Source: an uncultured virus (IMG/VR IMGVR_UViG_3300033121_001601) (lineage: Duplodnaviria > Heunggongvirae > Uroviricota > Caudoviricetes). From it: a stretch of DNA of 64,000 bases. Made by a program: the position numbers and the translations under genes. How positions within the stretch are numbered: position 1 is the stretch's first letter; the number at the start of each line of letters is the position of its first letter. A model generated the notes under the pieces. That model was given only the letters and a program-made list of their open reading frames with translations. It was not told the origin of the DNA and searched no databases. Positions 25,701 to 61,258 of the stretch are shown in pieces. The DNA lies in IMG/VR virus record IMGVR_UViG_3300033121_001601, positions 1 to 64,000 of that record. One strand, given 5' to 3'.

Positions 25701-26203
25701 CCAGTCAAGTTCCTGGAGATCCCAGGGTAAGTGACTCCGGCTACATCCTTGACGGTAACGTAGGTACCGCTCAGGCCAGTTTCAGATGGCTTGGTGCCAC
25801 TCAGAAACAGGTAGGTTGTGCACTTCGGGAACTGGTCGTAGACGTACTTCTCGAAGCCTGTAAGGCTGTCAAGGAAAACTTCGAACTCGGCCTGAGTTCC
25901 GTCGAAAGGGAACTGATCGTACATTTTACGGAAGGCCACATTGGTCTTCACGTGAGCTGAGTTGAAGAAGGTGTGATTTTCGAAGTTGTGCCAATCTACG
26001 TTGAGCTGCTGGGTACTCTTGATACCGTCTCCAGCCAAGTTATAACGGAATGAACTAGAGTGGTCAAGAGCTGTAGAGGACAGAGTTTCGTAATCCACCT
26101 TGTGAAAGGTGTTAGAGCCCATGTCATTCTCAACCATCTGTCGGATCACCGCAGGGGAAAACAAGACTGGTCTGTTCTGCCTTAGAGTTCTTGGATTTGG
26201 CAT
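22769..26203 (-). CDS. Baseplate wedge-like protein with LamG domains
   Basis: LamG motifs WNHIAFVW and IDELRIW. IWRRVLLNL..L.SKGT..SVK..I..G...IREFG is typical of phage baseplate wedge / P2 gpI-like proteins. Confidence 0.75.
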   Translation of the reverse strand: MPNPRTLRQNRPVLFSPAVIRQMVENDMGSNTFHKVDYETLSSTALDHSSSFRYNLAGDGIKSTQQLNVDWHNFENHTFFNSAHVKTNVAFRKMYDQFPFDGTQAEFEVFLDSLTGFEKYVYDQFPKCTTYLFLSGTKPSETGLSGTYVTVKDVAGVTYPGISRNLTGQSILNPGSNDMTIEFQLYLPAQANSSSFVINKLATSTVSGTHGFGVSLAATGSTTLGRVGVSFLSGAYGVVTDVIIPKGQWNHIAFVWDRRPNVNKAFGYVNGVFSNSSSSGVEIGLMNMDSADLIIGSGSAIPSFTGSNTLSGAIDELRIWHVNRSQQNRDEYMQKNVFAQQDLKLYMRFNEASGSQSPLVIDHSGNSLHGTLSSWAFDRGIRNVATGSVAGASPMLYEKLANNPVLFPLHPDLEELNSSLLEQAEEFDRVNPNRIDRLIPKHYLLQGQDQDGLTTEEGTIIDALAAGGSTPDTAKLGDTQVILMLLYTWAKFFDEMKLYIQAFGDLLHLDYDSTDTIPDAFLQLFADKFGITLPPLFTGSSIAQFINAENIDNQISTNDYSLQYIQNQIWRRVLLNLQDVLQSKGTIHSVKTFIRSIGIEPDNNLRIREFGGPSFRYLSNARENRSEASTLIDFSGSAHIQSSYLSGSRLETESGFPQPVGTFVNGISNQPRDGLFTSGSWTFEGVYRFPTTSSLSSVTQSLARMQTTGSAISGSFVVANLLATQNSGLTFAVSPNIGTPSILTMSLAVDVFDGSVWHISFGRQRADEIASTASSSYFLRAAKQSSGELTTMQVTSSFFDEIGTSSVNNIAWSNKSAPGNASGSFIAIGLETILTGIVHLNTGSLDSFYRSTAFDGRAGHFRFWSKALTQAEWTEHVRNFKSLGVENPLVNFNFVVNQTGSFGRLRMDVSSDQVELASSNTGFLQLTDFSQNNLHWSGSFPATSSVIVPQLFQYSLLSPKFDVGATTDKVRVRSFQNHDNILSSSYAQVAPIYSLDSSEIPQDNTRFTIDFSIVDALDQDIINIFATLDILDNVIGNPELIFSPDYPDLDSLRNIYFNRLVDRVNLKSFFEFYKWFDTNIGQFIAQLLPRKTKFLGTNFVIESHMLERPKLEYQFVDMYLGDSTRHALKDTILFQQFATSLARF

Positions 26204-39360: not shown

Positions 39361-40164
39361 CTATTGCACTTCCACGTCCAAAATTTTGACTTGATCGTTG
39401 CTGAAGACGGCAACTTCTGGAATTCCCTCCACCAAGTCCTCACCGTAGAAGACAACGGCATCGTAGACGTTGGAAGAGGCTTGCCTTGCTTCTTCCTTGT
39501 CCTTGGTGACCAGAACCCTGAAAGCGGTGACAGAGACGGTATAGACCTTGGGACGGTACTTGGAAGAATCGAGACCAACATCATCCAGTAGGTCATACAT
39601 CCACGACGGGGAGCCGGTGTTGCCCCCGAAGATATTCGTGAAGTCATCCAGGCCGTTATCTCCTCGTTCGCCCTTTTTGGAACCTGGGATGAAGTCGGCA
39701 ATATCTGAAATGGTGTTCGGATCCACCTTCAGGAATTGCTGGAACCCTTGAGAATCAAAGGTTCCTTCCCCTGGTGGGGGGTTGTCATTCCAAAACCCAT
39801 GAGTCCGTGCAAAAGTCTCCCAGGCATCTGGGCCTTCCTTGTAGATGGCCTCCAGGAACTCTCCGGCTGACTTGTTCACACTCTTCAGGTCTTGAATGAC
39901 TTCAGGGGGAAGACCCATGTTTCTGTTGGCGTTGGCATACTTCCAGGCCACTCGTTTGGAAGGAGTGAAAAAGAGCCCTTTCCCGTAGTAGGCATTGACC
40001 AGTTCATCTCGGCTTTTCCCAATGTCAAAAGCCTTGAAAGAAGCCGTGGTGCCGTGATAAAGGGTAACAGGCTGGCCCGAAGTAAGACCTTCTAGGCCGT
40101 AGTAGGAGAGGTTCAGGTCGGGGGACTCTTTGAGCAACCACTTCCAGTAACGTTGTAGTCTCAT
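39361..40164 (-). CDS. ADP-ribosyltransferase-like protein (polyvalent-protein ART type)
   Basis: LYHGT..F..F, G.GLFFT....A..YA and C-terminal YDAV..EVAVF..QVK; preceded by ATACTTA-5nt-ATG. Confidence 0.6.
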   Translation of the reverse strand: MRLQRYWKWLLKESPDLNLSYYGLEGLTSGQPVTLYHGTTASFKAFDIGKSRDELVNAYYGKGLFFTPSKRVAWKYANANRNMGLPPEVIQDLKSVNKSAGEFLEAIYKEGPDAWETFARTHGFWNDNPPPGEGTFDSQGFQQFLKVDPNTISDIADFIPGSKKGERGDNGLDDFTNIFGGNTGSPSWMYDLLDDVGLDSSKYRPKVYTVSVTAFRVLVTKDKEEARQASSNVYDAVVFYGEDLVEGIPEVAVFSNDQVKILDVEVQ

Positions 40165-40186: not shown

Positions 40187-43100
40187 TTATGGCTTCGCAG
40201 GAGCCTCAGAAAAGCCACCGAAAGCGAGAGCGGGGGAACGGCCCTTGCCAACACCGAACACGAATACCCCAGGCTGCTCAGGGATCATTCTCCAGGGGTC
40301 AATCACCACAGACCCGGCAGGGAACTTGTAGTCCCGGAATACTGCATGGTGTGTGCCAATAAAGAAGCACTTGGCAGGACCGTTAGCATACGGATTCACC
40401 GTCTTATCCTCAGCATTATCCACCCAAGGATCATACATCTCAGCCTCGATGCCCCTCTCGGCCAGGATGTTCTTCAGGAGGATCGCAGGAGAGCCAACCT
40501 CAAGGTTGGTCTGCTCCTTGAACGCCTTTCCGAGAATGACCACCGGGAGGGTCTTGTATTCCTTGACACCGAAGTCATCTGCGGAATAGATGGCTACCCG
40601 ACGACTCTTCTCAACCAAGTTAGCCAGGAAGTCCGTCTGCTTCTCCCGAGCCATCATGATGGCCTCATGGAAGTCAAAAGTCATCCCCAGCTTCCTGGAG
40701 AGCCAAGAGAGGGCGATGTTGTCCCGAGGGTGGCAGTTGTTTGATATACCTGATGTAGTCAGATAGTTGTGAGTTCCTTCAACATTAAGGTTGTACACAG
40801 TACCCTTGTAGTCTTCCAGTTCTACCTTGACAACTTGGTGGTAAGATACACCATCAATTACCGGGATTTCTCGCTGGATAAACTGTGCAATCGCTGGTTT
40901 ATGGTTTTGTTCACCAAGCAAGGTGCAAAGCTTTTGAACATATTGGTCATTTTCAACTCTGACCTTCCATTGAGGTTTTCGATTGCACCCATCATTGCTG
41001 TTTTCCTTTTCAACAGTAATTGTTGGCACAATGCCAAACTTCCTGAGAATGAAGTAAAGGTTAGAAGCCAAGACCTCAGAAGTGGTTGTGTAGCTCAAAC
41101 CCTTGCCATTCTTCATGTTGCATCCATCCCCTGCCCACATGCTTTGTACCAATGGAGTCAACACTTCTGGTTTGGCAAAAAGCAGCCATGGCGGGATTGT
41201 CTTCTTTGAAGAACCTCTCCCAAAGTCGTTCAAGAGCTTGCGTTTCAGGTCAGCAGAACTAATCCGAATATCCAAGCCATTTCGCTTGTTGTGCTTCTTT
41301 GCTGAAACGCGCTTGCTAGGATACAAACGCTTCAATGATTTAGTGAGATCGGTATGCAATTCAGTTTCATTGGAATGGAAACTGAAAGCAACACGAGGCT
41401 CATTAGCGATAGAACCTTCTGCAAGATAGTAACCAGCTACCTTCAAGTAATCCTCTGTGGCATGCTTGGGCATTGCAAAGTCTTGGTTGTGTGCCTCAAA
41501 TGGGAAAAGAATGTGATGCCTGTTCGGTTCCAGTTCCCAGCCCTTGACTTCTTTTACTGTTGTCACCTTAGTTTTATCTTCCAGTTCGGCCACCAAGAAC
41601 GTGTGGTCCAAGGTAAACTTCATGGCAGGCAAACCTTTTACATGCACATTCACAAGTTGTGAGTGATAAGGTCGCCTATACGTTTCAAGCACCTTGTGAA
41701 ACTGCCCATCCGAAGACAACACCATGTCACCCTTCTGGATATCTTTGGTCTGTCTCACTCCTAACTCCGTGAAAACATTACAGTTTTCAAGGGTGCATCC
41801 CCCACCGTCTCCCATGCCTGCATTCAGGTACTTCGTAGAGATGAGACGTTCCTTCCCCAGTTTCAGAGCCGAAGTCACCTCATCCACATCTGCTCCGGTG
41901 TGGTGACAGATTTCCATGAGGTTGTTGACAAAGGCAATCTTGGTGGAGATGAAGGTGTTGCCCTGCCATGAGCATTTGCCATTTCTTCGCGTCAAAAACA
42001 CATGATTCTTAGGCAGGACGGCACAATAGATCATGCCCTCGTATTCTAGCACTTCCTCATACTTCAATCCAACCTTGGATGAACGCTGAAATAGGGATGT
42101 TCTGCCTGTGAGCTCGTAGATAAGGTTGCAAGGCTTGTTTGAAAGCTCACTCTCGTAGACCCGATATGAGGGGAAGTGGCCTGCCTTGATAATCAGCTCG
42201 CCAATGTCCGCTGCCATCTGCTCTGACGAGGTGGCGTAATAACGATCAAACTCCCCGGTGGGTTCGCCATTGAATCTAGTTCTTGCTTGCTTACTGCCAT
42301 CAGCTTGGTTGTAAACATCCAAGAACAGCCTGATCTCCGGACGACCAAGCTCCTTGAGCCATGATGGCACGTACTTATCAAATGACTTGCCAAACTGGCA
42401 CAGGTATTCCCCGAGTTCGGCATGGTAGAAACTGACACCTGACTCTTGCTGGCAGATTCCATTGCTGCTTCCAAGAGCAGCTTGCAGCGCGGCGACGTTC
42501 TGAACGATGGAATTGTACTTTTCCAAATTTTTGGAACGGTTCTGAGAAATGATAATTTGGTAGGAGTTCTCAGAAACCTTGGTTGTGCATCCTTCTGCCA
42601 AATACCAAGCCATGAACTCAGTCATAAGCTCTATCGGAACTTCTCCAAACCCCAGGTTAACGGTTTCTGGGGACTTTAGGTCCCAGTTTGTGTGCCTGAG
42701 AAAAGCAAATGATTTCCTCTTGATAACTTCATTTGCTTTCTCCAGCTTCCACTTGTAGGAGTAGCTCTTGCCATTGGCTGACTTAGAGCTGAGTGTGCCG
42801 ATAAACATATTGTGCCCTGGAGTGACAAACACATCATCCTTTCGACTTTGGAATCGAATCATAGGTCCCTGGTGGTAACGGCCAACGATTTTGTCTGGCT
42901 TTACCCATTCGGGCACGAGGGTGTCTGGGTTCAGACTGAGTATTTCGTCCTTCTCGGTAACATTCGGAAACAGCTTCCACCCACCCGAAGTCAAAACTTC
43001 TGTGTCTTCCGAGTAGCAGTTATAAGCAACCTTCACAAGTTCAGCACTCTTGATGGAGCATCGATAGAACGGAGCGTTGTGGATGGTCTTGTAGAAGGCT

Positions 43101-43657
43101 TCAGCGAGATCAGCCGTCTTCTCGTCACTCATTCCAAAAAGAACGAACTCCGGGTGAGTGAAGTCGTACCTTGTGGTGCCCATGGCGATGAAAAAAGGGT
43201 TGTAGCAAAGCTTAAAGTGCTTGCCCAAGTGAGGAATCACCTTGGAATCCATGGTTCCTGGGAGCACCGTGGAAATGACCACCACGGGCTTGTCCTTGCC
43301 GTTCTTCTCAATGGCTTCATTGAGCTGCTTGCAAGCTTCAATCAGGTAAGTGTAATCAAAATCCACACGATCTTCTGGGATTCGAGTCACGCCCTCGTAT
43401 CGTGGGTTGTGTGGCGTCTGAACGGCCACAAAGATCAGGTCCGCAAAGTCCACCATCTCCTGAACGGAAACCACCCGAATCTTGGTGTTCTGCAATAGCT
43501 CAGGTGTCCCTTCCTCTCGGTAGGGTATTTGCTTTGTCCTGATGTACTCAGCAACAGCAGGGTTTGGGTCATAACCCACAACCTCGTGTCCAGCCGCTTC
43601 AGAAGCCAGGGCACATGGTAGCCCCAATTTTCCGAGCCCACAGTATCCTACACGCAT
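40187..43657 (-). CDS. ugd: UDP-glucose/GDP-mannose 6-dehydrogenase with two inteins
   Basis: GLGKLGLP Rossmann motif, AVQTP, STVLPGT, NP.F, AEL.K..YN|TF..KI.F.N and GGG|CHPRD. The spliced product would be 448 aa from ATG 43657. Confidence 0.9.
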   Translation of the reverse strand: MRVGYCGLGKLGLPCALASEAAGHEVVGYDPNPAVAEYIRTKQIPYREEGTPELLQNTKIRVVSVQEMVDFADLIFVAVQTPHNPRYEGVTRIPEDRVDFDYTYLIEACKQLNEAIEKNGKDKPVVVISTVLPGTMDSKVIPHLGKHFKLCYNPFFIAMGTTRYDFTHPEFVLFGMSDEKTADLAEAFYKTIHNAPFYRCSIKSAELVKVAYNCYSEDTEVLTSGGWKLFPNVTEKDEILSLNPDTLVPEWVKPDKIVGRYHQGPMIRFQSRKDDVFVTPGHNMFIGTLSSKSANGKSYSYKWKLEKANEVIKRKSFAFLRHTNWDLKSPETVNLGFGEVPIELMTEFMAWYLAEGCTTKVSENSYQIIISQNRSKNLEKYNSIVQNVAALQAALGSSNGICQQESGVSFYHAELGEYLCQFGKSFDKYVPSWLKELGRPEIRLFLDVYNQADGSKQARTRFNGEPTGEFDRYYATSSEQMAADIGELIIKAGHFPSYRVYESELSNKPCNLIYELTGRTSLFQRSSKVGLKYEEVLEYEGMIYCAVLPKNHVFLTRRNGKCSWQGNTFISTKIAFVNNLMEICHHTGADVDEVTSALKLGKERLISTKYLNAGMGDGGGCTLENCNVFTELGVRQTKDIQKGDMVLSSDGQFHKVLETYRRPYHSQLVNVHVKGLPAMKFTLDHTFLVAELEDKTKVTTVKEVKGWELEPNRHHILFPFEAHNQDFAMPKHATEDYLKVAGYYLAEGSIANEPRVAFSFHSNETELHTDLTKSLKRLYPSKRVSAKKHNKRNGLDIRISSADLKRKLLNDFGRGSSKKTIPPWLLFAKPEVLTPLVQSMWAGDGCNMKNGKGLSYTTTSEVLASNLYFILRKFGIVPTITVEKENSNDGCNRKPQWKVRVENDQYVQKLCTLLGEQNHKPAIAQFIQREIPVIDGVSYHQVVKVELEDYKGTVYNLNVEGTHNYLTTSGISNNCHPRDNIALSWLSRKLGMTFDFHEAIMMAREKQTDFLANLVEKSRRVAIYSADDFGVKEYKTLPVVILGKAFKEQTNLEVGSPAILLKNILAERGIEAEMYDPWVDNAEDKTVNPYANGPAKCFFIGTHHAVFRDYKFPAGSVVIDPWRMIPEQPGVFVFGVGKGRSPALAFGGFSEAPAKP
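40736..41797 (-). mobile_element. Intein 2 in the UDP-sugar dehydrogenase (LAGLIDADG), 354 aa
   Basis: Starts CTLENCNV; T.DH block B; GYYLAEG and MWAGDG; VYNLNVEGTHNY block F; ends SNN|C. Confidence 0.9.
41957..43018 (-). mobile_element. Intein 1 in the UDP-sugar dehydrogenase (LAGLIDADG), 354 aa
   Basis: Starts CYSEDTEVLT..GW; VTPGH; WYLAEG and NQADG; ends RRNGKCSWQGN|T. Confidence 0.9.
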
Positions 43658-43658
43658 T

Positions 43659-44441
43659 TTAGCCTTCTTTCCACTTCCACTTGAAACCACCCGCACTAGG
43701 ACGGCCCCCATTGCAACACCTAGAAATTGATTGATACGCAATTCCCACGGCAGCTTGTGCTTCTTTCAAGCTGTCAAATTCTGCAACCAGAATACCTGTT
43801 ACTCGATCCAATTGTACAACAGCTTTTTCATGTTGTTGGATGACAGCGGCCATCTTGTAACGAGTCTCAACAGACCACTTGTGACCATAAGCAGGATGAT
43901 TTGAACCTTTTTTCCCAAAATTGGGATGCTTTTCACCAGAGTTCAACTCACTCAGTTTCTTCTTGGTAGCTTCAGATAGCACTTTCCCCTTATGGGCTTC
44001 GCTGATTTTCTGCCGTACATTCTCCGACAGGTGCTTCCCAAAGTTGACATGCTGGTCCCCTTTGCCAAACCATGTCCTGCTCATTTTGGCCATAGCTTCA
44101 GGTGAGTGCTTTTGTCCTCGAAAAGTTTGCTCAACACTGCACATGATGTTGTAACAGTACTCTTTTCCAGCATGTTCATCCAAGAGTTTCTGTTCAGCAG
44201 CATCTAGTTCAATGGCAGGCAGGAGTGTCACAATGCTCATTTCAAAGGCATCTGAACCGTGTTTGTTGAAAGCATGCTGAAGACGTGGATTGTCATGAGT
44301 GCCTTTGGTTAGGTGTTCACAGTGATCTCGAAAGCGCCTACGAAGGTTGTCAGACTGGCCATAGTAGCACTTGCCATCAAGAACATTCCGTATGCAGTAT
44401 AGACCACACAACCGTTTCCCTTTTGGAGCTTCAAACTTCAT
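43659..44441 (-). CDS. GIY-YIG homing endonuclease
   Basis: GLYCIRN..GKCYYGQS..R..H, E, YN; NUMOD3 repeats; AGGFKWKW tail. Confidence 0.9.
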   Translation of the reverse strand: MKFEAPKGKRLCGLYCIRNVLDGKCYYGQSDNLRRRFRDHCEHLTKGTHDNPRLQHAFNKHGSDAFEMSIVTLLPAIELDAAEQKLLDEHAGKEYCYNIMCSVEQTFRGQKHSPEAMAKMSRTWFGKGDQHVNFGKHLSENVRQKISEAHKGKVLSEATKKKLSELNSGEKHPNFGKKGSNHPAYGHKWSVETRYKMAAVIQQHEKAVVQLDRVTGILVAEFDSLKEAQAAVGIAYQSISRCCNGGRPSAGGFKWKWKEG

Positions 44442-44510
44442 ATAGCCAAGTATGAGCCAAGCTTACCCAATTACACATATCCACTTCATGAGTATGAACA
44501 CAGGGGAGGT

Positions 44511-45119
44511 TTAGAGGATCAAAAGGCAACTCACTCCTGGGGTGTCGTACACGGTAAAAAGATTGAGCCGAAGAAACGTTTTGTATTCGAATTCCTTGAA
44601 GAACTCGATCCACTGTTCCTTGGTTTTGCAGTTGATGTGAGTGGGGTCTTGACGAGATACTTCCAGAGTGAAGGTCTTCCCGCCATCCGTTGAAGACGGA
44701 ATTCGAACCAACAAAGCCCTGGGATTCGTCTTGGTTAATACCTTGGCAATCTCTTGGTCCGTCATGTGCTCGAAAACATCCAGAGCAATCAAGAGGTCAG
44801 GCCGGCTGAAAACTATATCATCAATCGACTTGTGAACAAGAAGGCCATTCTTTTGGGCTATTTCTCTGGCCCAGTCAGAGATTTCCACGCCGATTGTATT
44901 CTTCAGACCAGCCTCTCGGAGACCTTCAATCAGGAAACCAACAGCGCACCCGAAGTCAATGATCAAGCTATCACGATCAACCAGACTAATAGTTCGAAAA
45001 AGGCCAGCCAGCTCATAGGCTGTTTTCTTGTAGCGGTCGGCTCTCTCCAGGTAGTCGGCATAGTTGGAAGATTGGTAATACTCTGCTGTATAGACGCTTG
45101 GGTCAACTGGTCCCGTCAT
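44511..45119 (-). CDS. Class I SAM-dependent methyltransferase
   Basis: IDFGCAVG, GVEISDWA, DVFEHM and DPTH. Confidence 0.85.
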   Translation of the reverse strand: MTGPVDPSVYTAEYYQSSNYADYLERADRYKKTAYELAGLFRTISLVDRDSLIIDFGCAVGFLIEGLREAGLKNTIGVEISDWAREIAQKNGLLVHKSIDDIVFSRPDLLIALDVFEHMTDQEIAKVLTKTNPRALLVRIPSSTDGGKTFTLEVSRQDPTHINCKTKEQWIEFFKEFEYKTFLRLNLFTVYDTPGVSCLLIL

Positions 45120-45418
45120 GGCTTGCCCTCTAGCACACTAACTTGACCAAAAAACTCCGATTTGGCCATCTTGCCCCCATATCGGCTCATGATCCCTTTT
45201 CGGGAACTGGACTCCTTTGAGACAGTCTTCAGGCCAGCTTTCCGTAGTTGCTTCTGAAGTGCAACCTGTGGGTCTACCTCAAAAATGGTGGGAGAAACTT
45301 GCAATGGCACGTAAGGTGCGTGGATGTATCCAGCATCCAAGAAGGTACGTCCCTTCATTTGGAGCTGTGAGGTTGTAGGGAAGTAAGGATCCTTGTGGAT
45401 CTTGTACTGTCGGCTCAT
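45116..45418 (-). CDS. Major-capsid-protein C-terminal fragment with inserted QLRKAGLK motif (ORF C)
   Basis: Y..KDPYFP...KG..FLDAGY..APYVPLQ.SPTIF...RKGIMSRY..KM..EF.G is a gp23-family C-terminus. ATGA-coupled to ORF B and in frame with ORF A. Confidence 0.75.
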   Translation of the reverse strand: MSRQYKIHKDPYFPTTSQLQMKGRTFLDAGYIHAPYVPLQVSPTIFEVDPQVALQKQLRKAGLKTVSKESSSRKGIMSRYGGKMAKSEFFGQVSVLEGKP

Positions 45419-45955
45419 GTTGTGTAGAGAATCGCTCCTGAGAGGGTTCCTAGGTTGGCGAAAGAAAAAACTAGGGGGAATGAACCCTTGAAACGCTGGT
45501 CTACCATTTTCAGGCCAGCCTTTCGAAGCCGTTGCTCCAGGGCTACAGACTCCACACTGGCATAGATCGAACCGGAGTGATGGTAGTGCCGATACCCCAC
45601 TGAGCAGGTTCCTGGCTGGTTGCAGGATGATTGATAATAGGCTGACGTGAGCAACAAGTGGTGCTGGTTGTACGACGAGCCAGAGTGAACGGTCAGAGCA
45701 CCAGACAGGTTCGAATGGTTCTGGCCGTATGAAAGGAAGTAAACTGAGCATGTCATGACGCTTTATTGACTCCAAGTCTCTCAGGATTTCAGCGTCAATG
45801 TCTTCTGAGATGCTCTGTGCCAATTCTTCGGTTAGCCTACTCTCCGGAGACGTGACCTTCAATCCAGCTTTACGCAGTTGCTGGTAGAGATGCTTTGACG
45901 TTTCCCAGGTTTCTTGAGTATGTTTCCAATGCGTTGGCGTCCAAGTCATGGTCAT
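45116..45955 (-). CDS. ORF A: capsid-derived helix plus QLRKAGLK motif; reads open through ORF B into ORF C (279 aa)
   Basis: WTP and LTEELAQSISEDIDAEILRDL resemble the gp23 motifs WT.E and L...I..EI..EIL.DL. Confidence 0.55.
   Translation of the reverse strand: MTMTWTPTHWKHTQETWETSKHLYQQLRKAGLKVTSPESRLTEELAQSISEDIDAEILRDLESIKRHDMLSLLPFIRPEPFEPVWCSDRSLWLVVQPAPLVAHVSLLSIILQPARNLLSGVSALPSLRFDLCQCGVCSPGATASKGWPENGRPAFQGFIPPSFFFRQPRNPLRSDSLHNMSRQYKIHKDPYFPTTSQLQMKGRTFLDAGYIHAPYVPLQVSPTIFEVDPQVALQKQLRKAGLKTVSKESSSRKGIMSRYGGKMAKSEFFGQVSVLEGKP
45415..45756 (-). CDS. Small protein with ALEQRLRKAGLK motif (ORF B)
   Basis: Has its own ATG; its stop overlaps the ORF C start (ATGA). Carries the same peptide motif in a different frame from the 279-aa ORF. 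Confidence 0.55.
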   Translation of the reverse strand: MTCSVYFLSYGQNHSNLSGALTVHSGSSYNQHHLLLTSAYYQSSCNQPGTCSVGYRHYHHSGSIYASVESVALEQRLRKAGLKMVDQRFKGSFPLVFSFANLGTLSGAILYTT

Positions 45956-46559
45956 GGTAACAATCGCCAGCCCTTTGTTTGAGAAATTTTGCCTCGAATC
46001 AAAGCTCCCAACCCTTGAGGTAAAAGTCCGTGCATCTTGGAAAAGGCATTAAGGTTGGTGATAGGTCCGAAAACTTCTCCGGTAGGAGATAAAGCTTCAC
46101 ATCAAAGGTTTTGGCCATGTATGTCCGACCTTTGTGTGCTTCCCTAATTTTCCGTTTGTGCTCCTCGGAAAACTTCTTGCCAAGCTTTATCTGAGACCAC
46201 TTCCTTCGTTGCTCCTCAGTCAGCTTTGCGCCCTTGCGATTTGGTGGTTTGTTGGCGACCGCCTTCATGTTGTAACAGGCTTTGCAGCCATCCCAGAATA
46301 AATCAACCCACTCCTGCTCAATTCGATCTAGGTCTGCCTCCAAACAGGTCCGCATCATAAACATCACAAAGGCATCTGAGCCGTACTTGTCGTACGCTCG
46401 GTGCAAATGGGCATTCTCGTGTTTGCTCCGGCGAAGAAGCGAAGAATGCTCCTTGAACCGACGCTTCAGTCTGTTAGCTTGGCCAAGGTAGAAGTGGCCG
46501 TTCACCAAGTTCTCGATGACGTAAATACCAACAGAGTCAACAGCTTCAATGAGTTTCAT
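45952..46559 (-). pseudogene. GIY-YIG homing endonuclease with a 1-nt frameshift before the C-terminal HTH
   Basis: GIYVIEN..YLGQA..R. After CTTTAT (~46092) the alternative frame reads LSPTGEVFGPITNLNAFSKMHGL..GKISQTKGWRLLP*, ending in an ATGA overlap with ORF A. Confidence 0.8.
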
Positions 46560-47629
46560 GCAAAGTTCTTATCTGGCAAATCTTCTACTACATAAGACAG
46601 AAGTTCATTATTTCGAAAATAATAACAGTGCCAGCACTGGCCTTGGATGTCAATGTCATAGGGATTGCCTCCCGTCTTGAATTTGGCATTCATAGCATCC
46701 CAGGCTTCTTTGATCTTGTCCGAGTCGCATAGCTTCCAAGTGTCGTGATAGTTCCGATGTTTCAGAACATGGGAGGTGCACATGTACACACCGTTCCACA
46801 CCCAGTAGGGCCTCACCATTCCGACCCAACAACCACCTTGGTAGGGATGGAAGGTCTCTCCAATCTCCTTGATGAAGAACCTGGAGTGAGTGTCCACTGT
46901 CTTCACGATATCGCCCCAATCTTTCTTGATGGTAATGGAGTTCTCGGTAAGGCAGTCCGAGGCGATTCGAACGAACTTGATCGAAGGATTCAGTTCCACC
47001 AGTTTTGCGATCTTCTGGATGGACTCCACAGTGGTGCCTTCGTAGATGATGTAGCTGAATCCCATCTTGGAGACGGAAAATCCTGTGAAGTCGTAATCCT
47101 CAGGGTTCTTACCTTCGTCCAGCTTGATGAGAGAGATTCGAATCCAAGAGAGCTTTGCAGCATTCTCTGGCTTGATATGCCTGGAAAGCTTCTCGGAGTT
47201 GGTGATAACCCCAATCTCGTAGCCCAAAGAGTGTGCCAACTCAATGATGTGATTGACATTTTTGTCCCCATCCTTGTAGAGCAGAGGGTTGCCACCTCCT
47301 GTGATCTCCACGGACTTGGCTCCCAGCTCTCGGAACTCTCGAAGACCCTTCTCGATCAGAGCAAAAGGGATCTTCTTGTCCACCGACCTCCAGGATACCG
47401 AGCAGAATGGGCAGTTGGAATCGCAAGCTTCTGTGGGAGCAAGCTGGATGGTGATTGGCTTGAAGGTTTTGTCAGCTTGGATGGAATGCAACACGTCAGC
47501 ATGTTGAAGGAGTTTTCCTCCCCAGGTAGAGTACGCTTGCGTCTGCTGCTCGTAACTCAGGTTCTCCTTCACAGGAGCCCCAACAGGCTGCTGCCCTGGC
47601 TGAATCACGTTTAACTTTGTTTTACCCAT
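46556..47629 (-). CDS. Radical SAM enzyme with SPASM/twitch-like C-terminus
   Basis: CDSNCPFC, ITGGGNP, ITN and RISL; C-terminal CW..C..CWHC. Confidence 0.9.
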   Translation of the reverse strand: MGKTKLNVIQPGQQPVGAPVKENLSYEQQTQAYSTWGGKLLQHADVLHSIQADKTFKPITIQLAPTEACDSNCPFCSVSWRSVDKKIPFALIEKGLREFRELGAKSVEITGGGNPLLYKDGDKNVNHIIELAHSLGYEIGVITNSEKLSRHIKPENAAKLSWIRISLIKLDEGKNPEDYDFTGFSVSKMGFSYIIYEGTTVESIQKIAKLVELNPSIKFVRIASDCLTENSITIKKDWGDIVKTVDTHSRFFIKEIGETFHPYQGGCWVGMVRPYWVWNGVYMCTSHVLKHRNYHDTWKLCDSDKIKEAWDAMNAKFKTGGNPYDIDIQGQCWHCYYFRNNELLSYVVEDLPDKNFA

Positions 47630-48014
47630 GTTGTTTCATCTCACGAATCTGCTGTTCCTCATCGAAGACGGTTGACCCACCCATCAAAAGTCCAAAATGA
47701 TTTTCATACCCGGTATTAGAGAAAACTTCATCCCCAGAAGCTTTACTCTCCAGTTCTCGAAACACAGCATCCGAAGACCCAAGAGACGGGTTGATAAAAA
47801 CCTGAATATTCATCCCTTTTCGGATGTACCGCCGCAGGGCATAGAACTCCGAGGAGCTTTTGTGGTCATCGTTATCCATCCACAACAAAACCTCTACTGG
47901 ATCAACCTTCTGACCCGTCTTGGCTCTCCAAGCTTCATAACCAACAACGCTGTCCAGAAATTTAAACAGGGTAGCAGGATCTTTTGGGAAATACACACAA
48001 ACAGTGATTGACAT
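47622..48014 (-). CDS. Truncated GT2-like paralog
   Basis: VEVLLWMDNDD..S and KASGDEV align with LEIVFYMDKDD..S and KIATGEI of ORF 48017. Lacks the GDD motif. Confidence 0.5.
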   Translation of the reverse strand: MSITVCVYFPKDPATLFKFLDSVVGYEAWRAKTGQKVDPVEVLLWMDNDDHKSSSEFYALRRYIRKGMNIQVFINPSLGSSDAVFRELESKASGDEVFSNTGYENHFGLLMGGSTVFDEEQQIREMKQHG

Positions 48015-48016
48015 GG

Positions 48017-48733
48017 CTATCCGATCTTGGTGTAGGTTCGAATGAACTCCTGGAGTTTCCGAGCATCTTCCTGGCGCTTGGGGAACATGTCATTATACAT
48101 CTGGGTCACATTGTCTCGATGGCCACGAGCCACAGTATCAGAGTAGGTCTGATCTCTTGGCTGCTTTCCGACGGCCCAGTGCATGTGCTCCGTATAGATA
48201 CGTGGCTCATAAACTCTCCGACCAATCATCGTGCTTACATCAGTGAGCCAAGTGTCATTGTAGTCACAGGAAAAGTACGGAGGTACGAAGTAGCCAACGG
48301 TATTCACCCAGTTCCGGTGAAGGAAACCGTGGGTGCCCAGCTTTTCATTTTGGATGCCGTCCATTCCGTGAACAAATACGATTTTGTCCGGCTGGGCATT
48401 GATGTGTTGCCTTACCAGAGTGTCCCACCCCTGGGAGCGGAAAATAATGTCATCGCCGCAATGCAGGTAGATTTCACCTGTGGCAATCTTCTGGCATTCA
48501 TTCCACATCTGGGAAAGGACAATTCTTTCTCCGCAGATGCCAAGGTGCTGTGGAGAGTCCATTCGTTCGAACTGCTCCAAGGAGTGAATGTCATCCTTGT
48601 CCATGTAGAAGACAATTTCCAGATTTTCCTTGTCGTCGGCTGTGTTCCAAGCAGACTCCCAGAGACGCTGCATTGCGTGGGGTCTTCCCCTGGTGGGTGT
48701 GAGAAGGCTGATCTTTGTGTTACTCATAGTCAA
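48017..48733 (-). CDS. Glycosyltransferase family 2
   Basis: ISLLTPTRGRP, WN, ATG..L..GDD, GWD, YND and EHMH. Confidence 0.85.
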   Translation of the reverse strand: MTMSNTKISLLTPTRGRPHAMQRLWESAWNTADDKENLEIVFYMDKDDIHSLEQFERMDSPQHLGICGERIVLSQMWNECQKIATGEIYLHCGDDIIFRSQGWDTLVRQHINAQPDKIVFVHGMDGIQNEKLGTHGFLHRNWVNTVGYFVPPYFSCDYNDTWLTDVSTMIGRRVYEPRIYTEHMHWAVGKQPRDQTYSDTVARGHRDNVTQMYNDMFPKRQEDARKLQEFIRTYTKIG

Positions 48734-49083
48734 ACAAACCTCTTTTCCCCATTCTCATGGATTCCCATGAAATTGGAATGTTCTCGAACCCAAGATTCTC
48801 CAGAAATATCCTCGTAAGTTACCAGGAACCTTGTTGGATCTTCACAGTCACGAGATACACGAACAACAGTATACACGGTGCCCTTGAAATGCCTCCACTT
48901 GGTTCCAGGAACAGGATCGAGGGGTTTGGGATCCAGGTTCTTGTTGTTTGATACGTTTCTGCCTCTGAGAACATCTCGGAGTTCTTGTACCTGTTTGGCC
49001 ATGACCAGATACGAAGTCTTCATCCAGGACTCAATTCCATAGCCTTCAAAAGACTTCACCAATTCTTCAAGGTCAACATCCAT
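48730..49083 (-). CDS. DUF1653-like domain protein
   Basis: G.WRHFKG..Y.V...D.E....V.Y....WVR...F...RF. Confidence 0.75.
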   Translation of the reverse strand: MDVDLEELVKSFEGYGIESWMKTSYLVMAKQVQELRDVLRGRNVSNNKNLDPKPLDPVPGTKWRHFKGTVYTVVRVSRDCEDPTRFLVTYEDISGESWVREHSNFMGIHENGEKRFV

Positions 49084-49119
49084 TGTTTGCTATTCTCCAT
49101 TCCTTGTGGGACATTTCTC

Positions 49120-49890
49120 CTATTGAGATTCGTCATTTACTCCCGTCCATCTTCTGTAAAGGTAGAGTTTTTCAGCCAAAACAGTGGTGTTTCTGAGAGC
49201 AAGTGTCACTCTTAGGTTAAAGTCAGAGTCCTCCGAGTTGGTGATCCGGAGACCCATTCCTGGAGGGTTGAACCGGAAACCAACGTTCCAGAGAGCCTTG
49301 AGGAACATCGCAGAAGTTCCAGCTGTTTCAAACTCTGCCGTAAAGAAATGGTTAATGCCCTCGGTCTGGAATCCGTACTGAACCATCTGGGAGACCACAT
49401 CAGCTTCAATACCCTTGAGGTCTCCTTCCACGTATTCATTCTTTCGTGCCTGCACCTCTTCCTCGGAGTGGCAGTGGTAGAAGCCACACAGGTTGTGAAC
49501 GCTCTCTGTGGCCCTCATGGCCTGAAATTGCCTCTCGATTCGCTGAGGCAATGCAATGTCATCAGCATCCTGACAGGTAATGACGAGGCCATTGCATTGC
49601 TCAATTGCAGCATTCAGGCAAAACCACTTCCCCTTATTGGAAGGAAGGTTGATGTAGCGAACTCTGGAGTCCTTGCGACACATTCTTTGGGCTACCTCAT
49701 CTGTCTCATCCGTTGAGCCATCATTCACGATGACGATCTCCAGGTTTCGGTAGGTCTGTCCGATAATGCTCTCCACGCTCTCTTGGAGAAACTTCCCATG
49801 GTTGAAACAAGGGATGACCACAGTAATCGTAGGGAGTTCAGTAATCGATTCGTCCTGGCTGGGCTGCTCTGTTGCTGCTTCTGTTGACAT
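49120..49890 (-). CDS. Glycosyltransferase family 2
   Basis: VVIPCFN, SI.GQTY.NLEIVIVNDGSTD, QDADD and EDSDF. Confidence 0.92.
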   Translation of the reverse strand: MSTEAATEQPSQDESITELPTITVVIPCFNHGKFLQESVESIIGQTYRNLEIVIVNDGSTDETDEVAQRMCRKDSRVRYINLPSNKGKWFCLNAAIEQCNGLVITCQDADDIALPQRIERQFQAMRATESVHNLCGFYHCHSEEEVQARKNEYVEGDLKGIEADVVSQMVQYGFQTEGINHFFTAEFETAGTSAMFLKALWNVGFRFNPPGMGLRITNSEDSDFNLRVTLALRNTTVLAEKLYLYRRWTGVNDESQ

Positions 49891-49892
49891 GT

Positions 49893-50174
49893 TTTGAGTC
49901 CTGCTTTTCTCAGTTGTTTGCTCAAAGAGAAAGATAGTCTCCCATGAACGGGATGAATATATCTTTCTGAACCTGAAGTGGGTTCTACCACATTTTATGC
50001 TCTTCTAGGCTTGCAGCTAGTTTTCAATCCAGTGGACTTCGAAATAGCTTTGAGGCCAGCTCTCCAAAGCTGCCTGGCAAAGTTCTACTTTGCCAGGGCT
50101 TTCTCTGGAAGGTACTTTGGCGACTCACTGCCTGGTGGATGAGTGGTAATGAACCATTTGAAACTTTTACCCAT
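49893..50174 (-). pseudogene. Two degenerate small ORFs carrying the QLRKAGLK motif
   Basis: 49995-50174 reads MGKSFKW..EKALAK*NFARQLWRAGLKAIS..; an ORF from 49991 reads ..SLSKQLRKAGLKT and runs out of frame into the GT2 gene. Confidence 0.55.
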
Positions 50175-51195
50175 GCGTTTTTACCCAATCTTGGATGAGA
50201 GCAGGGTGGGACCTGTGGATAGTAACGTGAGGAGTTGCCGTTCCCGACCATCTGAAGTGAAAGATGTGCCCTCCGGTCTTATTCTCCAGGTCCACGGCCT
50301 TTTGACGGATCATCTCATCGGTTACCTTGGCCCAAGGGACTTCAAAGAATGGATTCCAGTCAGGGTCCTTGTTCTTAGCACTGTCCGGACCGTACATGGC
50401 TTTCCAAAAGGTTGTCCAGAAGGAACGGTACTGCTTGATCTTTCGCTCCACGGAAAACCAGGAATAATGATGAACTCCTGGGAGCTCTGTGACAGCTTGA
50501 TTGAACCACTTTTCGTAAGTAGCAATCAACTTGGAAGGATTTTTCATCACTATGTGTCGAAGACTGTCAATCTCTGGGGGCATGAAGCCCATCACAGGGA
50601 GAATTTGGCCTGTACTCTTGGAGATGTAGTCGCAGGTATCTGTTCCCGGCGAGGCATAGTCCAGGCCGTTAAATTTCCTCCTGAGCTGGACAGGGATGCC
50701 GTGAGTGATGTCTGGAAGGTTTCGAGAAAGACGAGCTTTCCAGGGGTTGATATCAGCTCGAACCTTCCCTTTGCTTCCCCAGTATTCAATAACAGGCAAG
50801 GCCACAATGGAGCATTGCCGAAGGTAATTCAGCTTCTCAATCAAAGGCCGAATCTTCGGAGCATCCAACTCGTGGACAATCTCATCCGTATCGAACTGCC
50901 ATAGAAACTGCCCCTTGCAGTGAGACCTAGCCAGGGCCTTCGTCTGCCCATCGAAGATACCGTGATTAGGGGCCTTCCAGTCGAACTGATCGGTATGGAG
51001 GGCCCTAACCCTAGGGTCCTCCTTGGAGAGAGCTTGTAGAGCCTCCAGGGTGCCTTCGTTGGGGTCTCCAGAATCCAGAACAACTACCTCGTCAGCAAAT
51101 TGAAGCATGCTCTTGATGGACTCCAGGAAAGGGTAGTCCATAGTCAGGGCATTGCGAGTGGTCGTGTAAGCAGAAATGGTAACTGCGGGAGGCAT
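50167..51195 (-). CDS. Glycosyltransferase family 2-like
   Basis: YPF.ESIKS.L.FADEVVVLDSG, WQFDTDE and HHYSW. Confidence 0.8.
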   Translation of the reverse strand: MPPAVTISAYTTTRNALTMDYPFLESIKSMLQFADEVVVLDSGDPNEGTLEALQALSKEDPRVRALHTDQFDWKAPNHGIFDGQTKALARSHCKGQFLWQFDTDEIVHELDAPKIRPLIEKLNYLRQCSIVALPVIEYWGSKGKVRADINPWKARLSRNLPDITHGIPVQLRRKFNGLDYASPGTDTCDYISKSTGQILPVMGFMPPEIDSLRHIVMKNPSKLIATYEKWFNQAVTELPGVHHYSWFSVERKIKQYRSFWTTFWKAMYGPDSAKNKDPDWNPFFEVPWAKVTDEMIRQKAVDLENKTGGHIFHFRWSGTATPHVTIHRSHPALIQDWVKTHG

Positions 51196-51198
51196 GGG

Positions 51199-51537
51199 TT
51201 ACTCTTCCTCGACAACTTCATCACAACTTTGGAAGTTGGGGTGAGGAAGCCGGCACTCTGAACACACCTTCACAGCTCTCATTTTTCCCTTTACGGTTTT
51301 GAGAGTGGAAGTCCCAGCTGCTTTCGGTTGAAATTCTGGAAGTTCTGCCGCAAGATCTCCTTGGTAACGTTCGATAAGAAATACGGCAGTCAAAACAGGT
51401 CGAAGAGTCTTTGAAAGCTCTTTTGTCAGCTTCCCATCGGACTTTTTTTGCTTCCGAAGGTCATCCAAGTTGTCGGCGGCATCTCGAAGAGTTGCGATGA
51501 CTCCTTTCAATATCACTTCCAGTTCTTCTCGTTTCAT
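51199..51537 (-). CDS. Hypothetical protein
   Basis: 112 aa with GGAG RBS and an upstream TGaTATAAT; C-terminal C..C..H...C. Confidence 0.6.
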   Translation of the reverse strand: MKREELEVILKGVIATLRDAADNLDDLRKQKKSDGKLTKELSKTLRPVLTAVFLIERYQGDLAAELPEFQPKAAGTSTLKTVKGKMRAVKVCSECRLPHPNFQSCDEVVEEE

Positions 51538-60583: not shown

Positions 60584-61258
60584 CTACAGGATGCTTGCAG
60601 CAATTGTGGCCAACTTGCTGCTCAGGACGTATTGACCTTCTTTGAACTCCACCAAACCTTTCTTCAAAAGGTCAATGGCCAACTTCTCAGCGGAAGCATG
60701 AACAGCTTGGTGTATTTGCCTGGACTCGGTAATTGTCGTTCCAGAACACAAATACAGATTGCTGGGATGATTGTTGAGTTTGTCTTCATCAATATGATGA
60801 ACAATCTCATGTGACTCTAGGAACCGTCCCAATTCTTTCTCCATCACCAAGATGTGTTCCATGATGTATTTGCCGTTTTTTCTGGGTTTGGTACGTGGAT
60901 GTTCCTCATCTACAATAATTTGCTTATAGCCACTTTGGTATCTCCACCCTTGTTTGCGAATGGCTTTACTGATGGCTTTCCGATGTGACGGGCTGTAGGT
61001 CTTGCCTGTGAGCTGTTTGGTCGTTGAACAAGACTTGCACGGATGCTCTGCTTTTTTGCAGTTTGAAAGGAAATGCACCTCTCGTTCGATGTTGCAGTAT
61101 TCACATCGAACGAGAGCAATCTTGTCTTTTGCCAGAGTGGTTTTGCCGGGTTTGGACGCAATCAACATACCATTAGATATGCGTTGCCAAGTTGGATTTT
61201 TTGGAAAAGCGACACTAGAGAATGGAAGCCGCAATAGTGGCCAACTTGCTTCGTTCAC
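60584..61258 (-). CDS. HNH homing endonuclease (HNH_3 type); start uncertain, possibly ATG 61168
   Basis: GY, HP, Y..EH.LVME..LGR.L...EIVHHIDEDKLNN..SNL. Confidence 0.85.
   Translation of the reverse strand: MNEASWPLLRLPFSSVAFPKNPTWQRISNGMLIASKPGKTTLAKDKIALVRCEYCNIEREVHFLSNCKKAEHPCKSCSTTKQLTGKTYSPSHRKAISKAIRKQGWRYQSGYKQIIVDEEHPRTKPRKNGKYIMEHILVMEKELGRFLESHEIVHHIDEDKLNNHPSNLYLCSGTTITESRQIHQAVHASAEKLAIDLLKKGLVEFKEGQYVLSSKLATIAASIL

What the first reader, a model, noticed from the sequence alone, without database searches (positions are those of the whole stretch)
45116..50174. Small ORFs sharing a conserved QLRKAGLK peptide tag, two of them attached to major-capsid-protein fragments
Seen: the motif occurs five times, at 45857-45880 (QLRKAGLK), 45508-45531 (RLRKAGLK, different frame), 45227-45250 (QLRKAGLK), 49893-49916 (QLRKAGLK) and 50049-50072 (QLWRAGLK). 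Codons differ between copies (for example CGT/CGA/CGG/AGA for Arg, TTG/CTG/CTC for Leu), so conservation is at the peptide level, and the flanking sequences are unrelated. Known: the flanks of two copies match T4 gp23-family capsid motifs (I..EI..EIL.DL helix; DPYF..KG..DAGY..APYVPL..RKG.M.RY), and in ORF C the tag sits inside the capsid segment. Inference: this may be a modular tag-plus-variable-cargo system, such as capsid-mimic decoys for capsid-sensing host defences, dominant-negative inhibitors of competing phages, or a docking/targeting signal. Copy A (LRKAGLKVT) also matches, from memory, the first helix of Fur proteins, which may be convergence.
Basis: partly seen in the sequence, partly recalled or inferred. 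Interest (0 to 1): 0.85.

Follow-up and report, generated by a model that had tools for sequence, protein, structure and literature searches.

The report
Capsid-derived mini-genes sharing one motif
A large uncultured phage carries a variable cluster of very short genes that share one eight-residue peptide motif, two of them built from pieces of the phage's major capsid protein; the motif and the capsid pieces are real and under selection, but what the small proteins do is still unknown.

Summary
QL[RW][KR]AGLK occurs five times, all on the minus strand, and nowhere else in the 120.8-kb contig. Shuffled sequence gives no matches. Copies vary mainly at third codon positions.

The 279-aa ORF (45116-45955) is not one protein. 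Substitution patterns against a relative of 66-80% nucleotide identity show three short genes.
- A: about 60-85 aa, frame of 45955.
- B: 113 aa, 45415-45756, another frame.
- C: 100 aa, 45116-45418.
- B/C and C/methyltransferase overlap by ATGA.

A belongs to a rare family of stand-alone 59-82-aa proteins. They have a variable N-terminus, the motif, and a helix homologous to the capsid protein's presumed spine helix (hhalign 95%). C is the capsid protein's last ~85 residues with a ~19-residue insertion that carries the motif. Copies D and E lie in broken ORFs here; E lies in an intact 65-aa ORF in the relative.

The motif copies are recombination points. A 281-bp deletion between B and C is polymorphic in metagenomes, and sequence upstream of copy A is replaced in other contigs.

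Function is unproven. My best guess is capsid-segment mimics. Decoy, dominant-negative and tag readings remain untested.

The parts
45701..45955 (-). ORF A (mini-protein, about 60-85 aa). It has a variable N-terminal helix, motif A, then a helix like the capsid protein's presumed spine helix. The 3' end is uncertain in this genome because the frame stays open to 45116. Relatives stop after 59-82 aa.
   Evidence: pN/pS 0.33 in this frame over 45760-45891, against 1.05 and 2.01 in the other frames. Family members P0009, P0011, P0012, P0013 and P0014. AF2 model with helices 5-27 and 35-73, pLDDT 70.8.
45857..45880 (-). Motif copy A (QLRKAGLK). It covers the end of helix 1 and the turn of ORF A.
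45773..45844 (-). Segment of ORF A like the MCP's presumed spine helix (ESRLTEELAQSISEDIDAEILRDL).
   Evidence: BLASTP to relative's MCP 417-440, E 5e-4. hhalign of the ORF A family against 26 MCPs: 95% probability, E 3.6e-8.
45415..45756 (-). ORF B (113 aa, different frame from A). Rich in Ser, Tyr, His and Cys, with motif B near its C-terminus. Its stop overlaps ORF C's start (ATGA).
   Evidence: pN/pS 0.35 in this frame over 45488-45667, against 1.01 and 1.13 in the other frames. The start MTCSVYF is conserved in G002. No family or fold was found.
45508..45531 (-). Motif copy B (RLRKAGLK). It is the upstream partner of the 281-bp deletion.
45116..45418 (-). ORF C (100 aa). It is the C-terminal ~85 residues of a gp23-type MCP with a ~19-residue insertion that carries motif C. 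Its stop overlaps the methyltransferase start (ATGA).
   Evidence: Custom MCP HMM positions 454-531, E 4.5e-20. BLASTP E 2e-21. Homologues P0007 (100 aa) and P0008 (96 aa) at 86-89% identity.
45227..45250 (-). Motif copy C (QLRKAGLK), inside the insertion in the capsid fragment. It is the downstream partner of the deletion.
45228..45508 (-). 281-bp segment present here but absent from the 98%-identical relative G001 and from many metagenome contigs. It is bounded by the ~20-bp repeat formed by motifs B and C.
   Evidence: BLASTN of G000 against G001. Joints 45225/45227 -> 45507/45509 in 3 of 4 runs laid.
49893..49916 (-). Motif copy D (QLRKAGLK). It ends 2 nt before the ATG of the GT2 glycosyltransferase gene. 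Its ORF is not conserved in frame upstream.
50049..50072 (-). Motif copy E (QLWRAGLK). It is a relic here. The orthologous copy in G002 (QIRKAGLN) lies in an intact 65-aa ORF.
50085..50174 (-). 29-aa ORF whose ATG overlaps the stop of the upstream glycosyltransferase. It is cut by a TAG four codons before motif E. It is probably the broken 5' half of the ORF that is intact in G002.
45999..46559 (-). GIY-YIG homing endonuclease gene directly upstream of ORF A. It is not part of the unit, because it is absent in G002 and in one RNA-library contig that still carry A and B.

Best explanation
SHOWN. The region 45116-45955 holds three short genes, not one 279-aa gene.
- ORF A is a helix-loop-helix mini-protein. 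Its second helix is homologous to the major capsid protein's (MCP) presumed spine helix. Its loop and helix cap are the QLRKAGLK motif.
- ORF B is an unrelated Ser/Tyr/His/Cys-rich protein that ends with the motif.
- ORF C is the MCP's C-terminal ~85 residues with the motif inserted.
- A second intergenic slot at 49.9-50.2 kb holds two further copies, D and E. These are decayed here, but E is intact in a relative.
- A and B are under purifying selection. A has distant stand-alone homologues.
- The motif copies serve as short homology for recombination. This yields a common 281-bp deletion that fuses B to C's tail, and replaced N-termini upstream of copy A.

INFERRED. The copies arose by duplication and recombination of one small module (helix, then AGLK-x-x-S-x-E turn). 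The motif is kept because it is a structural connector or a binding site of these proteins.

INFERRED, LOW CONFIDENCE (about 0.25). A and C keep the MCP's most conserved residues while being only ~41-51% identical to any MCP. I therefore think they act as mimics of MCP segments that bind something the MCP itself binds. Candidates are another part of the MCP during folding or assembly, an assembly factor, or a host sensor of capsid protein.
For: Motif reality and peptide-level conservation.

Three genes in two frames:
- pN/pS against G002 is 0.33 in frame A over 45760-45891 and 0.35 in frame B over 45488-45667.
- The alternative frames give 1.0-2.0 and contain stops.
- Neighbouring bona fide genes give 0.07-0.29.
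- ATGA overlaps join B/C and C/methyltransferase.
- G002 has separate 61-aa and 112-aa ORFs.

ORF A family:
- A profile search of 1.84 billion representatives gave 6 hits at E <= 0.001.
- Five are short (47-82 aa) and share one architecture. The sixth (162 aa) is a frame-A read-through like the window's.
- hhalign against 26 MCPs gives 95% probability, E 3.6e-8.
- AF2 predicts a helix-loop-helix with the motif at the helix 1 end and turn.

ORF C:
- HMM E 4.5e-20 and BLASTP E 2e-21, with the insertion at the motif.
- Called as a 96-100-aa gene in other contigs.
- It matches 26 MCPs about equally: 31-39 identities over 70-79 aligned residues. This includes the lineage's own MCP, so it is not a recent copy.

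Recombination at the motif.

The unit is independent of the homing endonuclease.
Against: - No direct evidence of expression. Contigs from two RNA libraries carry the locus, but they may derive from DNA.
- ORF C is dispensable. It is deleted in the 98%-identical G001 and in most related contigs, and decayed in G002.
- D and E are broken in this genome.
- ORF B has no predictable fold (pLDDT 36). Its composition is odd.
- pN/pS of 0.33-0.35 is weaker constraint than in most neighbours (0.07-0.17). It rests on essentially one pairwise comparison with near-saturated synonymous sites.
- The motif itself lies outside the region that profile comparison aligns to the MCP, so its origin is unresolved.
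- Nothing tested here shows binding to anything.
Confidence: 0.55

Rival explanations
1. Neutral debris. The ORFs are decaying remnants of an old capsid-gene duplicate, or of fragments dragged in by illegitimate or endonuclease-driven recombination. The repeated motif is a leftover of internal duplication and has no present function.
For: - C is lost or decayed in most relatives.
- D and E are broken here.
- The locus is a hot spot with two GIY-YIG genes inserted nearby.
- A further MCP fragment ORF lies next to the real MCP in G001.
- The genome is rich in homing endonucleases.
Against: - The coding frames of A and B show a threefold excess of synonymous change, while the other frames look neutral.
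- Orthologous motif copies differ almost only at synonymous sites.
- ORF A homologues at 35-53% identity persist as stand-alone 59-82-aa ORFs.
- C keeps most residues that are invariant in 26 MCPs, despite 41-51% identity.
- ATGA coupling is preserved.
Confidence: 0.2
2. Modified-peptide system. The short ORFs are precursor or substrate peptides. The shared motif is the recognition sequence for the neighbouring radical-SAM enzyme, methyltransferase and glycosyltransferases, as in RiPP or glycopeptide clusters.
For: - A, B and C lie exactly between a radical-SAM gene (46556-47629) and a methyltransferase (44511-45119). In G002 they follow the radical-SAM gene directly.
- D abuts a GT2 glycosyltransferase start and E follows another glycosyltransferase.
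- B is rich in Cys, Ser, Thr, Tyr and His.
- Weak NCBIfam hits of the radical-SAM core include peptide maturases.
Against: - All radical-SAM hits are far below their cut-offs. The best are viperin-like and MoaA, not peptide maturases.
- The surrounding genes (UDP-glucose dehydrogenase, several glycosyltransferases, a methylase of a sugar pathway type) fit sugar chemistry.
- No protease or exporter gene was seen in the part I annotated.
- The MCP homology of A and C is unexplained by this model.
Confidence: 0.07
3. Nucleic-acid element. The 24-nt sequence is a DNA or RNA signal, such as an endonuclease target, recombination site, regulator binding site or ribosome-binding context. The peptide reading is incidental.
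For: - Copies bound rearrangements.
- D places AGGA 8 nt upstream of a gene start.
- E and D are untranslatable as they stand in this genome.
- A GIY-YIG gene sits next to copy A.
Against: - Variation is codon-periodic, with 18 extra states at third positions against 6 and 2.
- The copies occur in different reading contexts but always in an open frame in at least one relative.
- No Rfam family matched.
- Promoter-like sites are not enriched: 5 found against 5.4 expected.
- The endonuclease is absent in relatives that keep all copies.
Confidence: 0.05
4. One 279-aa protein, as the open frame suggests: an internally deleted capsid paralogue made of the spine helix, a linker and the C-terminus.
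For: - The frame is open from 45955 to 45116 here.
- It is also open in a 262-aa relative, P0016.
- Frame A also stays open across B in the deletion-form proteins P0001, P0002 and P0004.
Against: - The ~100-codon 'linker' evolves neutrally in that frame (pN/pS 1.01), while the overlapping frame B is constrained at 0.35.
- G002 has stops in that frame, and P0009 ends after 82 aa.
- B's low content of Lys, Asn, Asp and Glu codons makes off-frame stops rare. The open frame can therefore be chance (inference).
Confidence: 0.03

Closest known systems
T4-type major capsid protein gp23 (Pfam PF07068) and its paralogue gp24 (gp24 is recalled, not tested here)
   Same: ORF C aligns to the last ~85 residues, and ORF A's second helix aligns to the presumed spine helix. 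Most residues invariant in MCPs are retained.
   Different: These are 60-100-aa stand-alone products that lack most of the protein (the rest of its length). They carry a basic motif absent from the lineage's true MCP. They lie ~75 kb from the MCP gene in the relative.
PeSL mobile regulatory cassettes of T4-type phages (PMC2839356 and PMC4122927; search listing and abstract starts seen only)
   Same: Short conserved sequences recur in variable regions of T4-like genomes and bound insertions, deletions and replacements.
   Different: By those papers' titles and abstracts, PeSLs are promoter-terminator motifs. Here the repeat is conserved as a peptide inside ORFs, and no promoter enrichment was seen.
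Conserved glycine-rich motifs of gp38 adhesins, which separate hypervariable segments (PMC3157838; search listing and abstract start seen only; the motif detail is recalled)
   Same: A short conserved coding motif flanked by divergent sequence could allow modular exchange by recombination.
   Different: That case lies within one adhesin gene with a known function. Here the motif is shared among different small genes of unknown function.
N-terminal helix 1 and turn of Fur regulators (PDB 1mzb, 6h1c, 2fu4)
   Same: Identical LRKAGLKVT stretch at a helix-turn-helix junction.
   Different: The match covers only ~18 aligned residues at E 0.3-0.9. No Fur family hit was listed in Pfam scans, and there is no DNA-binding wing or metal-site region.
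IF2_N (PF04760)
   Same: Residues 19-55 of ORF A match profile positions 16-52 of 53 (E 6.6e-5). P0009 carries the same precomputed hit.
   Different: The score of 23.0-23.4 bits is below the gathering cut-off of 25.3. It is probably a generic helix-Gly-strand-helix pattern.

Membership tests
Gp23 major capsid protein (PF07068) | Significant profile match | tested here: met
   The 279-aa frame scores 28.6 bits against a cut-off of 24.4. ORF C alone scores 24.0 bits, just under the cut-off. Custom HMM of 6 MCPs: E 4.5e-20.
Gp23 major capsid protein (PF07068) | Full-length capsid fold (profile of 376 positions; MCPs here are 477-665 aa) | tested here: not met
   Only profile positions 287-337 of 376 are matched. 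Only HMM positions 328-351 and 454-531 of 536 are matched. The products are 60-100 aa.
Gp23 major capsid protein (PF07068) | Retention of residues invariant among MCPs in the matched segment | tested here: met
   DPY, KG, L, GY, APY.P, RKG and RY are kept in ORF C. Thr597 and Thr614 become Ser. Tyr588 is His here but Tyr in P0007 and P0008 (by inspection).
ORF A mini-protein family (defined here) | Stand-alone 59-82-aa ORF with a variable N-terminus, LR[KR]AGLK, about 8 residues, then [ED]ID.[EK][IF]L.DL | tested here: met
   The pattern holds in 6 of 6 aligned sequences of A6. Five of the six profile-search hits are short proteins (47-82 aa).
Fur family | Profile match to the Fur domain, with a DNA-binding winged helix and a metal-binding dimerisation domain | tested here: not met
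   No Fur family was listed in Pfam scans. The profile against PDB sequences gives E 0.31 over 18 residues only.
IF2_N (PF04760) | Score at or above the gathering cut-off | tested here: not met
   23.0 and 23.4 bits against 25.3.
PeSL-type regulatory cassette | Non-coding promoter plus stem-loop | tested here: not met
   Codon-periodic variation. Promoter-like sites: 5 found against 5.4 expected. Only copy E has an adjacent hairpin, at 50073-50097.
PeSL-type regulatory cassette | Copies bound indels and replacements between close relatives | tested here: met
   281-bp deletion between B and C. Breakpoint at 45885, 5 nt upstream of copy A, in two contigs.
RiPP-like precursor peptides | Short ORFs adjacent to a peptide-modifying radical-SAM maturase | tested here: inconclusive
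   Adjacency is met. The radical-SAM subfamily is unresolved, because all NCBIfam hits are far below cut-off and the best are viperin-like and MoaA.
Homing-endonuclease cargo or scar | Presence depends on the neighbouring endonuclease gene | tested here: not met
   G002 and the X19 contig lack the GIY-YIG gene but keep A and B, and X19 also keeps C.

The most novel reading that the evidence does not exclude
ORFs A and C are capsid-segment mimics, one of the presumed spine helix and one of the C-terminal strands. They are joined to a shared basic helix-cap motif and made on purpose by the phage. Their role would be to titrate a partner that recognises the MCP. That partner could be a host immune sensor of capsid protein (a decoy role) or a rival phage's assembly machinery (a dominant-negative role). 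The motif would double as the recombination handle that lets phages swap such mimics.
Probability: 0.12. Interest if true: 0.85.

Novelty: new variant of a known kind. Interest (0 to 1): 0.52.

Why it matters
Capsid proteins are now known triggers of several bacterial defence systems. I saw passages on this in one review (PMC13728456); the terms 'decoy', 'major capsid protein' and 'capsid' returned no passage describing a capsid-fragment decoy there. A family of conserved stand-alone genes made from capsid segments would be a concrete candidate for a counter-measure or an assembly modulator. It can be tested with ordinary expression and pull-down experiments.

Even without that function, the locus illustrates two things clearly. 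An eight-residue coding motif can act as a recombination handle that creates presence/absence and chimeric alleles in natural phage populations. And a long open frame can be an artefact that merges three genes.

Tried and rejected
- Rfam scan of 44000-51500 at E <= 5 gave nothing.
- DNA search of 44400-46700 against GenBank phages found no match. tblastn of ORF A and of P0014 against the same collection found no match at E <= 1.
- PHROGs and NCBIfam have no family for A, B, C or the G002 E ORF.
- ESM Atlas gave no usable hit for P0009 or ORF B.
- Foldseek of the ORF A model against PDB gave no match at E <= 0.001.
- AF2 of ORF B gave pLDDT 36, so the model is unusable.
- Complex prediction of the MCP with ORF A gave no verdict (score 0.00, controls not run). 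It is not evidence either way.
- I suspected by eye that ORF B is a collinear, decayed copy of MCP residues ~441-552. The MCP HMM did not support this, giving no frame-B hit, so I dropped it.
- I first thought the 281-bp segment was unique to this genome. That is wrong: P0007, P0008, P0016 and the X19 contig also carry it.
- I considered that the endonuclease had dragged capsid fragments here. I rejected this because relatives without the endonuclease keep the ORFs.
- I considered stop-codon reassignment as a way to rescue E. The in-frame stop is TAG, and the only suppressor-like tRNA found reads UGA.
- I could not recover the genomic context of the distant ORF A homologues. Neither P0012 nor P0014 was found in the viral collection; the hits were MCP genes or spurious.
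- An IMG/VR scan for DNA encoding QLRKAGLK gave 14 loci, of which only 2 come from related phages.
- Parts of the stretch without cover in the laid runs were not interpreted.

Full report
**Setting.** The window is the first 64 kb of a 120,849-bp viral contig, which CheckV estimates at ~31% complete. The genes I annotated all read on the minus strand. It is a large tailed phage. It has a baseplate wedge protein and many HNH and GIY-YIG endonuclease genes. It also has a sugar-chemistry block:
- a UDP-glucose/GDP-mannose dehydrogenase interrupted by intein sequence;
- several glycosyltransferases;
- a radical-SAM enzyme;
- a methyltransferase.

Two related contigs were recovered.
- G001 (189 kb) is ~98% identical over the central blocks (90-98% across all).
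- G002 (129 kb) is 66-80% identical across the aligned blocks.

Runs that hold parts of the locus are labelled wastewater, sludge and river metagenomes.

**The observation.** They are the only such copies in the 120-kb contig. A degenerate DNA pattern covering them matches 5 times, against 0.00 expected in 100 shuffles. I compared 14 copies (12 distinct) from G000, G001, G002 and a metagenome fragment. Extra nucleotide states number 6, 2 and 18 at codon positions 1, 2 and 3. All eight third positions vary (P about 0.009). Orthologous copies of A and B in G000 and G002 differ almost only synonymously. The conservation is therefore peptide-level.

**The 279-aa ORF is three genes.** I aligned G000 and G002 and counted synonymous and non-synonymous differences in all three frames.

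| Region | Frame of 45955 | Frame of 45756 | Third frame |
|---|---|---|---|
| 45760-45891 | 0.33 | 1.05 (with stops) | 2.01 (with stops) |
| 45488-45667 | 1.01 | 0.35 | 1.13 |

Neighbouring genes give 0.07-0.29 by the same method. Other points agree with three genes:
- G002 has separate ORFs of 61 and 112 aa.
- ORF B's stop overlaps ORF C's start as ATGA, and C's stop overlaps the methyltransferase start in the same way.
- Gene callers elsewhere have called A as an 82-aa protein, B/C fusions as 119 aa, and C as 96-100 aa.
- One lineage fuses A to B by a small indel (P0003, 182 aa).
- The open frame across B is also seen in P0016 (262 aa). It evolves neutrally in that frame.

**ORF A.** A profile of ORF A sequences was searched against 1.84 billion representative proteins. 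It found six proteins at E <= 0.001. Five are short (47-82 aa); the sixth (P0002, 162 aa) is a frame-A read-through like the window's. The short ones share one layout: a variable N-terminus, LR[KR]AGLK, about eight residues, then ..LA..I..[ED]ID.EIL.DL, followed by a stop. Profile-profile comparison with 26 MCPs aligns residues 34-68 to MCP 415-449, the presumed spine helix. Probability is 95% and E is 3.6e-8. The motif lies just outside the aligned part. AlphaFold2 on seven sequences gives helices 5-27 and 35-73 (pLDDT 70.8). That places ..QRLRK at the end of helix 1, AGLKVTS in the turn, and PES at the start of helix 2. The recalled Fur resemblance is real but short: LRKAGLKVT is identical in 1mzb, at E 0.31. 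The IF2_N match is below its cut-off.

**ORF C.** It aligns to residues 547-633 of G001's 637-aa MCP (E 2e-21). There is a 19-residue gap in the MCP exactly at ..QVALQKQLRKAGLKTVSKE... An HMM built from six MCPs gives E 4.5e-20. ORF C is about equally distant from all 26 MCPs compared, with 31-39 identities over 70-79 aligned residues. It still keeps nearly all residues invariant among them (by inspection). The true MCP of G001 lacks the motif. Homologues of C exist in other contigs (P0007, P0008, P0016). An RNA-library contig of ~91% identity carries A, B and C without the endonuclease.

**ORF B.** It is a Ser/Tyr/His/Cys-rich 113-aa product with conserved Cys and His positions. No family, atlas neighbour or confident fold was found. 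Only the part up to and including the motif is conserved with G002. The tails after the motif differ.

**Copies D and E.** They share a frame in the 276-bp gap between two glycosyltransferase genes. In G002, E (QIRKAGLN) lies in an intact 65-aa ORF whose ATG overlaps the upstream stop. In G000 and G001 the corresponding ORF is cut by a TAG. That TAG sits in the loop of a perfect 11-bp hairpin. D ends 2 nt before the GT2 start in G000. In G002 it reads NLRKAGL-stop. Upstream of D the conserved residues fall in different frames in the two genomes. I read D and E as relics of further motif-bearing small genes.

**Recombination.**
- G000 differs locally from G001 by 261 extra bases plus a 20-bp repeat formed by motifs B and C.
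- The same 281-bp joint appears in contigs of three of the four runs laid. The fourth run carries the full form.
- Many database proteins are B/C fusions.
- G002 keeps a decayed trace of the capsid fragment (FLEPKCLFASYVPLQ, weak, E 0.066) and a frameshifted motif C. The full form is therefore probably ancestral.
- Two contigs diverge from the window exactly at 45885, 5 nt upstream of motif A.
- G002 has a different N-terminus for ORF A and no endonuclease gene.

**What it most likely is.** It is a set of small accessory genes built round one helix-cap and turn module. Two of them derive from MCP segments. They sit in variable intergenic slots, and the motif doubles as the homology that recombination uses.

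That A and B are functional proteins is reasonably supported. That C is functional is less so. Their activity is inferred only. A and C retain the MCP's conserved faces, which suggests mimicry of MCP segments. I found no evidence for any specific partner.

Rivals are neutral debris, precursor peptides for the adjacent radical-SAM and transferase enzymes, a nucleic-acid signal, and a single 279-aa protein. Each is weighed in its own section.

**Literature.**
- A full-text search for 'LRKAGLK' returned 0 papers.
- I searched for capsid fragment and decoy terms, and for truncated capsid paralogue terms. I judged the results from listings, abstract starts and passages of PMC13728456. None described such mini-proteins.
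- PeSL and gp38 papers were seen as listings and abstract starts only.

Noticed in passing
window 40187-43741 (-): A 1184-aa UDP-glucose/GDP-mannose dehydrogenase is interrupted by an intein with a LAGLIDADG domain (residues ~682-998). A second ~350-residue insertion lies between the N-terminal and central domains. G002 lacks the second block and has different sequence at the first site.
   Followed up: partly
window 45999-46559 (-) versus L002:5360-6010: The GIY-YIG endonuclease next to ORF A is 186 aa here, and its C-terminal DNA-binding part is out of frame (a separate 27-aa ORF at 45952-46035). G001 has a 216-aa version that differs markedly at the protein level by inspection, although its flanks are ~98% identical. 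This points to an allele swap or a decaying copy.
   Followed up: partly
L003:609-1403 (-) (G001, just downstream of its capsid gene): A 264-aa ORF contains another MCP fragment (MCP HMM positions 385-470, E 7e-11) flanked by unrelated sequence. This lineage therefore carries capsid-derived pieces at two or more loci.
   Followed up: partly
G000 contig 106833-106906 (+), outside the window; also in G001: ARAGORN calls a 74-nt tRNA with anticodon UCA, labelled SeC. It is too short for a true selenocysteine tRNA, so it may be an opal suppressor. Long ORFs read normally under code 11.
   Followed up: no
window 50073-50097: A perfect 11-bp inverted repeat with a 3-nt loop lies immediately upstream of motif E. 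The in-frame TAG that breaks the E ORF lies in its loop. The repeat is absent from G002.
   Followed up: partly
window 61215-63578 (-): A PIN-PhoH fusion protein (787 aa) has a LAGLIDADG domain inside it (residues ~521-565). This suggests another intein.
   Followed up: no
window 39361-40164 (-): A 267-aa protein has an ART-PolyVal ADP-ribosyltransferase domain (E 5e-13).
   Followed up: no
window 46556-47629 (-): The radical-SAM enzyme has a CX3CX2C motif and a Cys-rich C-terminal half (C-x16-C ... CxxC). It matches no curated subfamily. It is highly conserved with G002 (89% amino-acid identity, pN/pS 0.08).
   Followed up: partly
G001 contig 25395-25745 (-): ARAGORN calls a tmRNA-like gene (tag GADALQMAA) in the relative's contig. 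It lies outside the region shared with the window.
   Followed up: no
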